Assembly: GCF_048403405.1 (NCBI RefSeq)
Contig: NZ_CP183135.1
Length of the DNA: 64,000 nucleotides
From: Escherichia coli
Lineage (GTDB): Bacteria; Pseudomonadota; Gammaproteobacteria; Enterobacterales; Enterobacteriaceae
Strand: one strand, 5' to 3'
This document shows positions 33,001 to 36,000 of the stretch, one piece after another (position 1 is the first letter of the stretch; the number at the start of each line of letters is the position of its first letter). The position numbers were made by a program.

Positions 33001-36000
33001 AAGGGATTATCATTCAGCACATGTTGTACCTGTTCTCCCAGTCCGTTGAAGGATTTACGCATATCGGTAACGCCGGCAACGAGCCAGATACGGGTACCTG
33101 ATGGGAGTGAGATCATCTTCCCCTCCCGGTCAGTTCACGAATCAATACAGTGAGCAGCTCTGGTGAAGGATTTTCCAGCGTCATGTTACCGTGACGGAAC
33201 TCCACCTTGCAGGAGCTGGCACTGACAGTAGTCTGAGTGGATAAGGACGGAGTAAGAGCAGCCATCGGTTCTTTCGGCTCATCAGGCGTTATCTCTACAG
33301 GTAATAATTCAACGCCTGCGTCAGAAGTGGTTGTCACCGGAATACGCCGTGATATACGCCCTTCGTTTTGCCAGAGTCTGAGCCATTTGAAAATAACATT
33401 ATCATTGACGCCATTTTCTCGTGCAATCTGGGCCACACAAGCACCGGGTTGTGATGCCAGTTCAACCATACGAATTTTGAATTCATTCGAATACTTTTTA
33501 CGAGGTTCTTTTCGTCAGTCCTGTAATTCCATACTTAGATGTCCGTCTGTGTCAGATGGGCGTCTAAGGGTAATGACTCCAACTTATTGATAGTGTTTTA
33601 TGTTCAGATAATGCCCGATGACTTTGTCATGCAGCTCCACCGATTTTGAAAACGACAGCGACTTCCGTCCCAGCCGTGCCAGGTGCTGCCTCAGATTCAG
33701 GTTATGCCGCTCAATTCGCTGCGTATATCGCTTGCTGATTACGTGCAGCTTTCCCTTCAGGCGGGATTCATACAGCGGCCAGCCATCCGTCATCCATATC
33801 ACCACGTCAAAGGGTGACAGCAGGCTCATAAGACGCCCCAGCGTCGCCATAGTGCGTTCACCGAATACATGCGCAACAACCGTCTTCCGGAGACTGTCAT
33901 ACGCGTAAAACAGCCAGCGCTGGCGCGATTTAGCCCCGACATAGCCCCACTGTTCGTCCATTTCCGCGCAGACGATGACGTCACTGCCCGGCTGTATGCG
34001 CGAGGTTACCGACTGCGGCCTGAGTTTTTTAAGTGACGTAAAATCGTGTTGAGGCCAACGCCCATAATGCGGGCAGTTGCCCGGCATCCAACGCCATTCA
34101 TGGCCATATCAATGATTTTCTGGTGCGTACCGGGTTGAGAAGCGGTGTAAGTGAACTGCAGTTGCCATGTTTTACGGCAGTGAGAGCAGAGATAGCGCTG
34201 ATGTCCGGCGGTGCTTTTGTCGTTACGCACCACCCCGTCAGTAGCTGAACAGGAGGGACAGCTGATAGAAACAGAAGCCACTGGAGCACCTCAAAAACAC
34301 CATCATACACTAAATCAGTAAGTTGGCAGCATCACCTATTGCAGCGTTACTTATCCGGATTATCCTCAGAAGTGTAAATCAGCATTCTCCTTTGCTGATG
34401 CAATTGCATGCGGCAGGTATACGGACCGGTGATGCAGAGCGAATACTGTCCAGCGGTGAATGCTGGCAACGTCAGAAGACGCTGCTGACAGGAAGGGAAG
34501 TCAGTTTTATGAAAGGACTGTTCAGAATTGTGGATATGAAGCGGTGGTATCTGTGTCCGCAGGTACGGGTCGCGGATATCGTCCAGCTGAACGGGAATAT
34601 CCGGCCACGATCACGCCAGTGGTGGCAGTTATTCAGGATGGTGTCTCAGTGGCATGTTGATGTGGTTATCGTTGAGCGGCGTTCGTTCAGTATTGTTGCA
34701 GCAGTAGAGCTGGATGATGCCAGTCATTTACGACCGGAACGCAGACGCCGGGATATTCTTCTGGAAGAGGTTCTGAGGCAGGCTGGTATTCCGTTGCTCA
34801 GAAGCCACGATGCCAGAAAACTGCTGCAGATGACCGGAGAATGGCTGAATACAACAGGGGCTGATCAGCAGTCCCCGGAACATCGTAGCTGACGCCTTCG
34901 CGTTGCTCAGTTGTCCAACCCCGGAAACGGGAAAAAGCAAGTTTTCCCCGCTCCCGGCGTTTCCATAACTGAAAACCATACTATTTCACAGTTTAAATCA
35001 CATTAAAGGGCTGCGTTTGGGAAACGTACAATATTGTACGGTTGCGTTATCGCGCTCGGGTGTACTCCCGTGCTATACGGCGTTTTCAGAGGATTTGACC
35101 TCAATCGGATAACCTAAATGCAATACTGCAATGGCGATAACTTAAAAGGGATAGACGTTGACGCAAAATCAATCTGTTATGCATATCTATTGGTTAAATA
35201 ATGCGCTTAACGTTCAAAATTTTTCGATCTCCAGACTGCCCCCGTTCAGCTCGCATAGGAATTATGGGAGAGGATTTTGGCTGAACCGGACAGATATAAA
35301 CCCGTTACTTTTTATACCTTACAGATATGGTTCTTTTGACGTAATTCTTACCAATTTCATAGTCCGGGTTCCATGTCGCCAGATTATGGACACCGATTGC
35401 GGCAGCACTCACAGCTCCCAGAAGTGCTGTTGGTGACCATAGGGAGCCTGCCACCGCAGTGCTTCTGTATTCGGTGTATACGCGGCAGGTTAATTTCTTC
35501 TGCTGATGTTCAATCACATACTCCACTATTTTGACGGTTTCACTGATGTCGTTAACATTCGTGATATCAAAACTTTTGCGGTAAAAAATCAGGTCGTGTA
35601 GTTTCTGTTTGGTCAAAAATTCTGCGTTGAACGACTCAATCTGTACCGTTTCTGACATCCGTTGTTCCTCTCTTTCTTGGAGTCTGTGAATTTCCCTAGG
35701 CACGCGCCTTACGGTCAAACGTTGCACTTTTTCAGGGGCAGTGTATGTCAGAAAAGAATATATTGACTTGTATAAACGATCAATAATAAGAAATTGATCG
35801 TCTTAACTGTAAGCGTAAACCGACTGCCGTATGTGGGGGCGGTTTGGAGATCGGACATTTTTGTACTATAAGGGCTTCCCCGAACAGTCAACGTCGGTAT
35901 TTATGGTTTGTGTCTGCACTACAGTTAAAAATAAAGGGGAGAGACTGCGGTACTATAAACGGCCATAATGAATCGCTATCGATTCGGACCCTGATGAAAG

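What the first reader, a model, noticed from the sequence alone, without database searches (positions are those of the whole stretch)
35305..35661. Unassigned 118-aa gene with C-terminal Gly/Ala-rich hydrophobic helix inside the IR-bracketed segment
Clean ORF on the minus strand with a hydrophilic N-terminal ~75 residues and a C-terminal AVAGSLWSPTALLGAVSAAAIGV segment. I cannot assign it to a family. Small membrane-anchored proteins next to recombinases are often toxins, immunity or exclusion factors.
Basis: inference. Interest (0 to 1): 0.5.

Follow-up and report, generated by a model that had tools for sequence, protein, structure and literature searches.

The report
Orphan membrane-hairpin gene in a MITE cassette
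This is a real, strongly conserved small gene of unknown function, probably a protein that dips a short greasy hairpin into the inner membrane and takes part in conflicts between mobile elements or phages, and it reached this resistance plasmid as the only cargo of a miniature transposon pair.

Summary
The ORF is real. It runs 35658→35305 on the minus strand and encodes 117 aa, one codon shorter than reported. It has a good Shine-Dalgarno site, dN/dS of 0.04–0.2, and about 500 homologue clusters across Proteobacteria and beyond. No Pfam, NCBIfam, PHROG, PADLOC or PDB sequence match exists.

AlphaFold gives a confident Alba/SepF-like α/β core. The Ala/Gly-rich segment (residues 66–90) is an insert between β3 and β4, not a C-terminal anchor. 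It is uncharged, short (20–30 aa) and carries a central helix breaker (Ser-Pro here). The most conserved motifs flank it: CRVYTEYR and HNLATxNPDYEIGK. A re-entrant (monotopic) membrane hairpin fits best.

The "IR-bracketed segment" is a TIME-COMP: two inverted MITESen1-like Tn3-derived miniature elements with a 5-bp duplication (TTAAA), inserted between yihA and repA2. Its 591-bp cargo matches chromosomal islands of other Enterobacterales: 84% nucleotide identity to Trabulsiella over the segment, and 93% to Klebsiella within the gene. The neighbouring "recombinase" is an IS110-family element that independently targeted one TIME's inverted repeat.

Elsewhere the family sits in cargo regions of integrative islands. 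It is repeatedly next to BrxR/CapW-type WYL regulators, PDC-M40B-like candidate defence proteins and dynamin-like GTPases, or fused to TerB/TerD. A defence or exclusion role is plausible but untested.

The parts
35305..35658 (-). Coding sequence of the 117-aa protein (ATG 35658-35656, TAA stop 35307-35305). Predicted layout: β1 8-11, α1 17-25, β2 30-33, α2 38-50, β3 58-62, hydrophobic helix-break-helix 66-90, β4 100-105, β5 110-115.
   Evidence: ORF and translation. (RefSeq CDS WP_000005489.1). (dN/dS 0.04-0.2). (family alignments). (AlphaFold model: pLDDT 80, pTM 0.70).
35666..35673 (-). Shine-Dalgarno sequence (AGAGAGGA), 7 nt upstream of the ATG.
   Evidence: Read from the sequence. It is conserved in the Klebsiella and Trabulsiella copies.
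35755..35801 (-). Putative promoter and operator. The -35-like TTGATC is at 35783-35778, followed by a 17-nt spacer and a -10-like TATTCT at 35760-35755. A 9-bp palindrome overlaps it (ACGATCAAT 35801-35793 / ATTGATCGT 35784-35776), each arm containing GATC.
   Evidence: Read from the sequence. This block is conserved upstream of the Klebsiella, Trabulsiella and Hafnia copies. It matches only 8 of 12 consensus positions, so the simple promoter scan did not list it. This is an inference.
35244..35834 (.). Captured cargo DNA of the composite element (591 bp), holding only this gene and its upstream region.
   Evidence: Positions 35244-35787 are 84% identical to a Trabulsiella odontotermitis chromosomal island (L021 3439-3990). 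Similarity stops at the miniature elements.
35008..35243 (+). Left MITESen1-like TIME (Tn3-derived inverted-repeat miniature element), 236 bp and complete. The outer end is GGGCTGCGTTTGGG... and the inner end is a Tn3-type 38-bp IR.
   Evidence: It is 83% identical to the ISfinder MITESen1 sequence printed in Table S2 of PMC13367494. Sharp boundaries are shared with solo copies in other plasmids.
35835..35865 (-). Inner 31 bp of the right TIME (its 38-bp IR), separated from the rest by the IS.
   Evidence: it matches the MITE tail consensus with 3 mismatches; the rejoined right TIME is 225 bp and 77% identical to MITESen1.
35866..37233 (-). IS110-family insertion sequence (1368 bp; transposase CDS 36130-37152 as annotated in RefSeq), inserted in the inner IR of the right TIME. 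It is not functionally linked to the small gene.
   Evidence: CDS. (interruption point). (the same junction in a Tn3-type IR in K. variicola and on Y. pestis pMT).
37234..37427 (-). Outer 194 bp of the right MITESen1-like TIME, in inverted orientation relative to the left one.
35003..35007 (.). Left copy of the 5-bp target-site duplication TTAAA.
   Evidence: the empty site in plasmid p53_C (L015) has a single TTAAA at 2167-2171, which aligns to both window 35003-35007 and 37428-37432.
37428..37432 (.). Right copy of the 5-bp target-site duplication TTAAA.

Best explanation
SHOWN. The ORF is a genuine gene under purifying selection. It encodes a 117-aa member of an undescribed protein family of about 500 clusters, mostly Proteobacteria, typically 105-125 aa. 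It sits as the only cargo of a TIME-COMP. That element consists of two inverted MITESen1-like Tn3-derived miniature elements with intact outer ends and a 5-bp TTAAA duplication. It is inserted between yihA and repA2 of an IncFII backbone. The cargo matches CP4-type chromosomal islands of other Enterobacterales: the 591-bp segment is 84% identical to a Trabulsiella island, and the gene is 93% identical to the Klebsiella copy. The insertion has been inherited clonally in about 250 sequenced plasmids.

INFERRED FROM THE MODEL AND CONSERVATION. The protein is a cytoplasmic Alba/SepF-like α/β domain. An uncharged Ala/Gly-rich helix-break-helix (residues 66-90, Ser75-Pro76 at the break) is inserted between β3 and β4. 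The insert is flanked by basic and aromatic conserved motifs (C58-R-V-Y-T-E-Y-R65 and H91-N-L-A-T-W-N-P-D-Y-E-I-G-K104). The strands on both sides belong to one sheet and the insert is only 20-30 residues long. I therefore read it as a re-entrant hairpin that enters and leaves the cytoplasmic leaflet of the inner membrane (monotopic), not a transmembrane anchor.

INFERRED FROM CONTEXT (least certain). The family acts at the membrane in conflicts between the host or its mobile elements and phages or other invaders, as a stand-alone effector or sensor (exclusion or abortive-infection type). In some lineages it is one subunit of larger WYL-regulated systems. On this plasmid it would be an accessory trait, not a replication, transfer or transposition function.
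For: Gene reality: Shine-Dalgarno site and ATG; dN/dS 0.04-0.20; homologues with invariant R59, H91 and P98 and near-invariant F30, E46, R65, T95, D99 and E101.

Insert properties: 20-30 aa, 28% Ala, 16% Gly, 1% charged. Kyte-Doolittle 19-residue mean is 1.42 for the query and 1.65 for the family. Summed Hessa ΔG is +4.7 kcal/mol, so it is a poor transmembrane helix. 47 of 63 members have Pro at relative position 0.39±0.08, and 13 more have GG or GxG. A Ser-Pro break plus flanking basic residues enforce re-entrant topology in PglC (PMC6133551).

Mobile cassette. TIME-COMPs bounded by MITESen1 are described in PMC13367494.

Conflict context: the gene lies in variable regions of integrative islands carrying RadC, DUF932, YqaJ, AlpA, YfjJ, CbtA/CbeA, antirestriction genes and type I RM. 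HTH-WYL-WCX regulators are adjacent in 8 of 59 genome loci from at least 6 genera. They are also adjacent in Paraburkholderia and in a gut-metagenome operon. PDC-M40B-like proteins (E 1e-72, 7e-79, 3e-35) lie next to family members in three unrelated loci. A LeoA-like dynamin GTPase lies next to a TerD-Sel1-family fusion. Three independent fusions to a C-terminal TerB-like region exist. One was confirmed by my Pfam scan (P0113, E 6e-4). One carries a precomputed weak TerB hit (P0214). The third (L079) was judged by eye only. About half of BrxR-type regulators co-localise with defence systems (PMC9122601).
Against: No experiment exists for any member of the family. The hydrophobic insert is the low-confidence part of the model. 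A buried oligomer interface would look similar, and the tandem-copy AlphaFold run gave no confident arrangement.

Most family members (about 80% of loci) have no conserved neighbour, so guilt by association rests on a minority. PDC systems are themselves untested candidates (10.1101/2024.01.29.577857). No family member matches any PADLOC model.

Island cargo regions also carry virulence and metabolic genes. The E. coli chromosomal paralogue sits beside the pap operon. The plasmid copy has no WYL, GTPase or PDC partner. The clonal spread of the plasmid copy gives no evidence that it is selected there.
Confidence: 0.4

Rival explanations
1. The protein is a soluble (or only peripherally membrane-bound) oligomer. 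The Ala/Gly-rich helices form a glycine-zipper-like core between subunits. The Alba/SepF-like domain binds a nucleic acid or a host protein, for example a cytoskeletal or division protein, as SepF binds FtsZ. This would make it a host-modulating island gene comparable to CbtA, which is encoded in the same islands.
Confidence: 0.2
2. It is a small membrane-damaging toxin of an unrecognised toxin-antitoxin or addiction module. On the plasmid it serves post-segregational stabilisation.
For: The protein is small with a hydrophobic Gly/Ala-rich segment. It is located in regions rich in TA systems: ParE/Phd, BrnT and CbtA/CbeA in homologous contexts, and pemIK and hok-type loci near this site in related plasmids. 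MITESen1-like elements elsewhere flank a DinQ-like type I toxin.
Against: No conserved adjacent small partner gene was found across 59 loci. No Rfam RNA was detected in or next to the gene. At 117 aa with a folded α/β domain, it is unlike type I toxins. About 250 plasmids and about 500 E. coli chromosomal records keep an intact, constitutive-looking copy without a partner. The same backbone without the cassette is common, so the gene is not needed for maintenance.
Confidence: 0.12
3. On this plasmid the gene does nothing that is selected. It is a neutral hitch-hiker: a fragment of a chromosomal island trapped between two miniature elements, moved once, then carried along by a successful plasmid lineage.
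For: There is one insertion site. Copies are at least 99% identical in about 250 plasmids, and about 243 share the whole arrangement. No second independent TIME-COMP insertion of this cargo was seen. IncFII plasmids lacking it are far more numerous.
Against: This concerns the role on the plasmid, not the protein's activity, so it is compatible with the main explanation. The cargo retains the conserved upstream region and an intact reading frame in nearly all copies. However, the lineage is too young for decay to be expected.
Confidence: 0.2

Closest known systems
[quoted passage not shown] 2014, PMC4133298)
   Same: Two copies of a roughly 236-256-bp element bracket a short captured segment. 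The elements have Tn3-type 38-bp ends (GGGG...ACGTTAAG). The whole is flanked by a 5-bp direct repeat, sits on an enterobacterial plasmid, and has no transposase of its own.
   Different: The arms are only 83% and 77% identical to MITESen1. They lack its 21-bp block, and their outer ends are a distinct 52-bp variant, identical in both copies. The cargo is not an antibiotic-resistance gene but this orphan gene. One arm is split by an IS110-family element. Mobilisation was not tested.
Re-entrant membrane helix of monotopic phosphoglycosyl transferases (PglC; Entova et al. 2018, PMC6133551)
   Same: A helix-break-helix with a Ser-Pro break, flanked by conserved basic residues. The globular domain and both ends of the hydrophobic element lie on the cytoplasmic side.
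   Different: There is no sequence or fold relationship. In PglC the hairpin is N-terminal; here it is an internal insert in an α/β domain. The hairpin here is Ala/Gly-rich and shorter. Topology is inferred, not measured. No catalytic residues of PglC are present.
SepF C-terminal domain and Alba / AlbA_2 (Schlafen-type) α/β folds
   Different: The similarity is only at fold level (6-13% identity), and no profile or sequence match exists. SepF binds the membrane through an N-terminal amphipathic helix, not an internal hairpin. The family's signature motifs (CRVYTEYR, HNLATxNPDYEIGK) have no counterpart.
Small membrane proteins of prophages and plasmids that exclude or abort incoming phages (e.g. 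lambda RexB, P22 SieA, T4 Imm) - from general knowledge, not tested here
   Same: A small accessory gene of a mobile element, with no enzymatic domain recognised and a hydrophobic segment. In many islands it is placed directly beside the element's repressor-type HTH gene.
   Different: There is no homology. Those proteins are polytopic or bitopic, whereas this one has a folded cytoplasmic domain and at most a half-membrane hairpin. No homologue was found in 50,697 phage genomes or in PHROGs.
IS4321/IS5075-type IS110-family elements that target the 38-bp inverted repeats of Tn3/Tn21-family transposons (behaviour recalled from the literature; applies to the neighbouring gene)
   Same: The IS next to the small gene lies at one fixed position inside a Tn3-type 38-bp IR. 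Related copies (87-90% identical) lie at the same position in other plasmids.
   Different: It is a different IS (1368 bp; nearest annotated names are IS1618 and ISShdy1). It has no functional link with the small gene.

Membership tests
TIME-COMP (composite of Tn3-derived miniature elements) | Two copies of a TIME bound the segment | tested here: met
   The left element is 35008-35243. The right element is 35835-35865 plus 37234-37427. They are 84% identical to each other and in inverted orientation.
TIME-COMP (composite of Tn3-derived miniature elements) | Tn3-family-type terminal inverted repeats on each miniature element | tested here: met
   The inner ends are GGGGGCAGTCTGGAGATCGAAAAATTTTGAACGTTAAG and GGGGGCGGTTTGGAGATCGGACATTTTTGTACGTTAGG. 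The outer ends are GGGCTGCGTTTGGGAAACG.... Related solo copies carry GGGGTCAGTTTGG...TACGGTAAG.
TIME-COMP (composite of Tn3-derived miniature elements) | 5-bp direct repeat flanking the whole unit, with a matching empty site | tested here: met
   TTAAA occurs on both sides. A single TTAAA is present in the uninterrupted yihA-repA2 spacer of p53_C.
TIME-COMP (composite of Tn3-derived miniature elements) | Mobilisation by a Tn3-family transposase supplied in trans | not testable with these tools
   This needs a transposition assay. A Tn5403-family transposon lies on the same plasmid, but its IRs were not compared.
MITESen1 (ISfinder) | Near-identity to the 256-bp reference (the 2026 survey used >=95% identity and coverage) | tested here: not met
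   Identity is 83% (left) and 77% (right), with a 21-bp deletion. These are related variants, not MITESen1 proper.
   β3 (58-62) and β4-β5 (100-115) on either side of the segment form one sheet at pLDDT >90. A central Pro or Gly break is present in 60 of 63 members. Summed Hessa ΔG is +4.7 kcal/mol. 27 conserved residues follow the segment.
Monotopic proteins with a re-entrant helix-break-helix (PglC-like mechanism, not homology) | Hydrophobic helix-break-helix with a Ser/Thr-Pro break and flanking basic residues | tested here: met
   Ser75-Pro76 is present in the query. 47 of 63 members have Pro, and 32 of 63 have [ST]P or P[ST]. R59 and R65 are invariant or near-invariant before the insert, and K104 follows it.
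Monotopic proteins with a re-entrant helix-break-helix (PglC-like mechanism, not homology) | Experimentally shown same-side topology and membrane association | not testable with these tools
   This requires cysteine-accessibility or reporter fusions and fractionation.
SepF / Alba-like proteins | Detectable sequence or profile homology and the family's functional sites | tested here: not met
SLATT 2TM effectors (one AFDB family member carries this automatic name) | Match to a SLATT profile | tested here: not met
   No SLATT family appears among the Pfam hits of 63 members, even at E<=0.1. No NCBIfam SLATT hit was found for a Vibrio member. The name appears on A0A2N7G957 only.
Known anti-phage defence proteins (PADLOC-DB v2) | Match to a model of a known or candidate defence protein | tested here: not met
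   No significant hit was found for the query, 10 diverse members, or the fusion proteins. Only neighbouring genes match (PDC-M40B, PDC-M09A, LeoA, WYL).
Toxin-antitoxin module | A conserved adjacent antitoxin gene or antisense RNA | tested here: not met
   No recurrent small partner was found in 59 loci. No Rfam RNA was found at the locus. An undescribed RNA antitoxin cannot be excluded.

The most novel reading that the evidence does not exclude
The protein founds a new family of monotopic, hairpin-anchored membrane modules. They would act as the membrane-sensing or membrane-acting subunit of a previously unrecognised class of WYL-regulated conflict systems. The core of such systems would be WYL regulator, this domain and a PDC-M40B-like protein, with variants fused to TerB or TerD or paired with dynamin-like GTPases. 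Stand-alone copies, such as the one on ST131-type IncF plasmids and in uropathogenic E. coli islands, would by themselves confer phage or plasmid exclusion.
Probability: 0.2. Interest if true: 0.65.

Novelty: new variant of a known kind. Interest (0 to 1): 0.4.

Why it matters
The gene is carried by about 250 sequenced IncF plasmids in PLSDB. A paralogue (about 69% amino-acid identity) lies in pathogenicity islands in roughly a tenth of complete E. coli genomes. No function or family has been assigned to it.

If the family is a membrane-acting defence or exclusion module, it would add a single-gene trait that affects phage susceptibility or plasmid uptake in clinically dominant lineages. It would also give a handle on the untested PDC-M40 candidate system.

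Independently of function, the locus shows that MITESen1-like miniature elements can capture and move non-resistance cargo from chromosomal islands onto plasmids. It also shows that an IS110-family element homes to their inverted repeats. Both points are useful for annotating plasmid mosaics.

Tried and rejected
1. Family assignment. The query and up to 63 members were scanned against Pfam. NCBIfam, PHROGs and PADLOC were also searched. The family profile was run against PDB sequences, and tblastn was run against 50,697 phage genomes. Foldseek was run against viral structures. All were negative.

2. Invertible segment driven by the adjacent recombinase. Rejected. The repeats are the ends of two miniature transposable elements with a target duplication and an empty site. 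The IS110 element is a later insertion.

3. The arms as single-strand promoters (Frpo-like) or structured RNA. Rejected. The DNA fold z-scores are -1.3 and -0.9, and there is no Rfam hit.

4. DUF2726 (yihA) as a functional partner. Rejected. It is IncFII backbone, adjacent to repA2 in plasmids without the cassette.

5. The small genes next to MITESen1-like copies in other plasmids as homologues. Rejected. The 111-aa protein in L020 is unrelated, and dqlB in L018 is a type I toxin.

6. Dimer geometry from an artificial and natural tandem alignment. Uninformative: pTM 0.46, with both inserts below pLDDT 50.

7. The longer 140-aa ORF from GTG 35727. Rejected. The upstream in-frame stretch is not conserved in Hafnia, and all distant homologues start at the ATG.

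8. The SLATT annotation seen on one AFDB entry. Not reproduced.

9. A constant gene partner across the family. None was found. Only minority associations appeared: WYL in 8 of 59 loci, PDC-M40B in 3 loci, and GTPases in enterobacterial and one metagenomic context.
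Full report
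**1. Observation**

The minus-strand ORF exists. The ATG is at 35658 and the stop at 35305-35307, so the product is 117 aa. It is identical to RefSeq WP_000005489.1, annotated 'hypothetical protein'. AGAGAGGA lies 7 nt upstream of the ATG. The quoted hydrophobic stretch is residues 68-90.

The gene is not a chance ORF.
- Pairwise dN/dS against the Klebsiella, Trabulsiella, Hafnia and E. coli island copies is 0.04-0.20.
- A single-sequence search finds 112 homologue clusters, and a profile search finds 533.
- An exhaustive HMMER scan of 1.84 billion representatives finds 179.

Homologues are almost all 105-125 aa. They occur in Entero-, Beta-, Gamma- and Epsilonproteobacteria, Desulfovibrionia, Verrucomicrobia and Lentisphaerae.

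**2. What the protein looks like**

No described family matches. The searches were:
- Pfam, for the query and each of 63 members;
- NCBIfam, PHROGs and PADLOC;
- the family profile against every PDB sequence at E<=10;
- 50,697 phage genomes.

Conservation is concentrated in two motifs: C58-R-V-Y-T-E-Y-R65 and H91-N-L-A-T-x-N-P-D-Y-E-I-G-K104. R59, H91 and P98 are invariant in 63 diverse members.

AlphaFold2 with that alignment gives pLDDT 80 and pTM 0.70. The order of elements is β1-α1-β2-α2-β3, then helices 65-94, then β4-β5. Confidence is above 90 on both sides of the helical part and below 50 for residues 75-86.

**3. The hydrophobic segment**

In the family the insert between R65 and H91 has these properties:
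- It is 20-30 residues long, with 28% Ala, 16% Gly and 1% charged residues.
- The best 19-residue Kyte-Doolittle mean is 1.42 in the query and 1.65 across the family.
- The summed Hessa scale is +4.7 kcal/mol.

47 of 63 members have a proline at relative position 0.39±0.08. In the query this is Ser75-Pro76. Thirteen more members have GG or GxG.

The strands before and after the insert pair in one sheet. The segment therefore cannot be a single-pass anchor that leaves the C-terminus outside. It is also too short for a full transmembrane hairpin.

The conserved Arg, Tyr, Trp, His and Lys residues at both ends look like an interfacial belt. This combination is what enforces re-entrant, monotopic topology in PglC, which has a helix-break-helix with a Ser-Pro break and flanking basic residues (PMC6133551).

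I therefore read the protein as a cytoplasmic domain with a half-membrane hairpin. This is an inference. A buried oligomer interface is the main alternative. An AlphaFold run on head-to-tail copies, modelled on the natural tandem proteins P0116 and P0234, did not resolve it (pTM 0.46).

**4. The IR-bracketed segment**

Ordinary IncFII plasmids have yihA (DUF2726) directly followed by repA2/copB. Against such an empty site, the window carries an insertion at 35008-37427 flanked by a duplicated TTAAA.

The arms are complete miniature elements of about 236 bp. They have sharp boundaries that are shared with solo copies in other plasmids. Their inner ends are canonical Tn3-family 38-bp repeats (GGGGGCAGTCTGG...ACGTTAAG). 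They are 83% and 77% identical to MITESen1, whose sequence is printed in Table S2 of Gomi & Yano 2026 (PMC13367494).

That paper defines composites of two such elements as TIME-COMPs and reports MITESen1-bounded ones carrying qnrS1, floR and qnrD1. The present element is the same kind of structure with inverted arms and a different cargo.

The cargo is 591 bp (35244-35834). Positions 35244-35787 are 84% identical to a Trabulsiella chromosomal island, and the similarity ends exactly at the arms. The Klebsiella pneumoniae chromosomal copy is 93% identical in nucleotides within the gene.

The right arm is split, 31 bp from its inner end, by an IS110-family element at 35866-37233. Related IS copies sit at the same position of Tn3-type repeats in a K. 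variicola plasmid, beside a Tn3-family transposase gene, and in Y. pestis pMT. The 'recombinase' is therefore an IR-targeting IS, unrelated to the small gene.

The gene is found in 250 PLSDB plasmids, 249 of them at >=99% identity. About 243 share the whole yihA-cassette-repA2 arrangement. This is one event, inherited clonally.

**5. Where the family lives**

In K. pneumoniae, Trabulsiella and Hafnia the gene lies in CP4-type integrative islands. It sits between a YeeP-like GTPase gene and the antirestriction-RadC-CbeA-CbtA block, with AlpA, YfjJ and a type I RM system nearby.

A paralogue with about 69% amino-acid identity and about 70% nucleotide identity (122 aa) occurs in about 500 E. coli chromosome records. 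It lies in pheV- and leuX-type pathogenicity islands next to the pap operon.

In Alcanivorax, Dechloromonas, Pandoraea, Rhodoferax, Aeromonas and others, 15-18 of 59 loci place it in the variable region of islands that carry RadC, DUF932, YqaJ, a Gp3-like protein, an XRE repressor, AlpA and YfjJ. It often lies directly beside the repressor gene.

Other contexts include SIR2 genes and a WYL regulator (Paraburkholderia). They also include a type I RM system with Fic and ParE (Arcobacter), and BrnT with a DNA methylase (Methylomicrobium). No single neighbour is constant.

**6. Recurrent minority partners**

- **WYL regulators.** HTH-WYL-WCX regulators with BrxR/CapW architecture (Pfam-confirmed) lie within about 600 nt in 7 loci and 1.9 kb away in an eighth, of 59 genome loci. 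The hosts are Vibrio (3 species), Psychromonas, Rheinheimera, Burkholderia, Mesocricetibacter and a marine MAG. They also occur in Paraburkholderia and in a gut-metagenome operon where the regulator gene overlaps the start of a family-TerB fusion.
- **PDC-M40B-like proteins.** Proteins matching the PADLOC candidate PDC-M40B follow family members in three unrelated loci: L090 (E 1e-72), Verrucomicrobia L076 (7e-79) and Mesocricetibacter L062 (3e-35). In L062 the operon is WYL, family gene, 128 aa, PDC-M09A-like, PDC-M40B-like, 84 aa, second family gene.
- **Fusions.** Three independent proteins carry a C-terminal TerB-like region. P0113 was confirmed by my Pfam scan (E 6e-4). P0214 carries a precomputed weak TerB hit. 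L079 was judged by eye only. A TerD-Sel1-family fusion follows a LeoA-like dynamin GTPase. Other fusions involve lipoyl-like domains and leucine-rich repeats.

PDC systems are untested candidates predicted by embedding in BREX, DISARM and RM systems (10.1101/2024.01.29.577857). About half of BrxR-type regulators co-localise with known defence systems (PMC9122601).

The common theme is membrane-associated stress or defence functions. This supports, but does not prove, a conflict role for the family.

**7. Verdict**

The gene is real, unassigned and mobile-element borne. The hydrophobic segment is an internal, probably re-entrant hairpin rather than a C-terminal anchor. The recombinase adjacency is coincidental. 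'Conservation across plasmids' reflects clonal inheritance.

The mobile context is a known kind (TIME-COMP) with a new cargo. The protein belongs to an undescribed family. Its most likely role is a membrane-acting defence or exclusion module of integrative elements, at about 0.4 confidence. The rivals are a soluble oligomeric binder, a toxin, and a neutral passenger on this plasmid.

Interest is moderate. The family is widespread in clinically important E. coli and Klebsiella. It offers a tractable entry into an untested candidate defence system. Nothing here is established beyond sequence and model evidence.

Noticed in passing
window 35866-37233 (junctions at 35865/35866 and 37233/37234); L093 1501-2917; L094 1501-2914: The IS110-family element sits at one fixed position inside a Tn3-type 38-bp inverted repeat. 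The same junction sequences occur around 87-90% identical IS copies in a K. variicola plasmid (next to a Tn3-family transposase) and in Y. pestis pMT. This suggests the IS homes to these repeats, as IS4321/IS5075 do.
   Followed up: partly
window 35008-35243 and homologous sequences in L018, L020, L080, L081, L082: MITESen1-like miniature elements at 70-89% identity occur in more than 2,300 PLSDB plasmids. This is far more than the 2.3% of genomes reported for MITESen1 at >=95% identity. They often lie next to varied small genes, including a DinQ-like type I toxin (dqlB) and an unrelated 111-aa protein.
   Followed up: partly
L019 2501-2554 (E. coli FORC_031 chromosome, near fecI): A 54-bp match (87%) to the outer end of the miniature element lies on the chromosome in most complete E. 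coli genomes searched (2,277 chromosomal places). In the one locus inspected it sits among IS3 and IS1 remnants, and it is probably the stump of an old Tn3-type element. Whether all these places are the same locus was not checked.
   Followed up: no
window 35755-35801 (minus strand): The conserved upstream region of the gene contains a perfect 9-bp palindrome (ACGATCAAT/ATTGATCGT) over a -35-like hexamer and several GATC sites. Similar GATC-rich repeats precede the Klebsiella, Trabulsiella and Hafnia copies. This could be an operator or a Dam-sensitive switch.
   Followed up: no
L062 1233-6342; L076 5947-9232; L090 898-4937: An operon type recurs in three unrelated bacteria. It combines a WYL-WCX regulator, one or two copies of this domain (once fused to TerB), a PDC-M40B-like protein of about 550 aa, and sometimes a PDC-M09A-like protein. 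It is a candidate multi-gene system not described as such.
   Followed up: partly
L085 7391-8281; L021 3949-5064; L022 5440-6387; L091 157-1710: GTPases recur beside family members. A YeeP-like MMR_HSR1 GTPase lies convergent and 37-126 nt away in Klebsiella, Trabulsiella and Hafnia. A GTPase pseudogene lies beside the E. coli island paralogue. A LeoA-like dynamin GTPase lies upstream of the TerD-Sel1 fusion.
   Followed up: partly
L096 927-3518 and L074 4167-5687: A natural tandem duplication of the domain (P0116) is flanked by proteins of about 230-260 aa. They are homologous to two genes directly upstream of the family gene in a Bilophila genome and may be another lineage-specific partner.
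   Followed up: no
window 29142-32157: The plasmid carries the downstream part of an arginine deiminase pathway cluster (argF, a YfcC-family transporter gene and argR) just upstream of the IS66/IS1 remnants. In the matching RefSeq plasmid, arcA and arcC precede these genes.
   Followed up: no
window 35659-35727: The reading frame stays open upstream to a GTG at 35727, giving a 140-aa ORF, and gene callers sometimes use it (137-aa entries exist). The extension is conserved only where the nucleotide sequence is conserved (Klebsiella, Trabulsiella) and not in Hafnia, so it is probably untranslated leader.
   Followed up: yes
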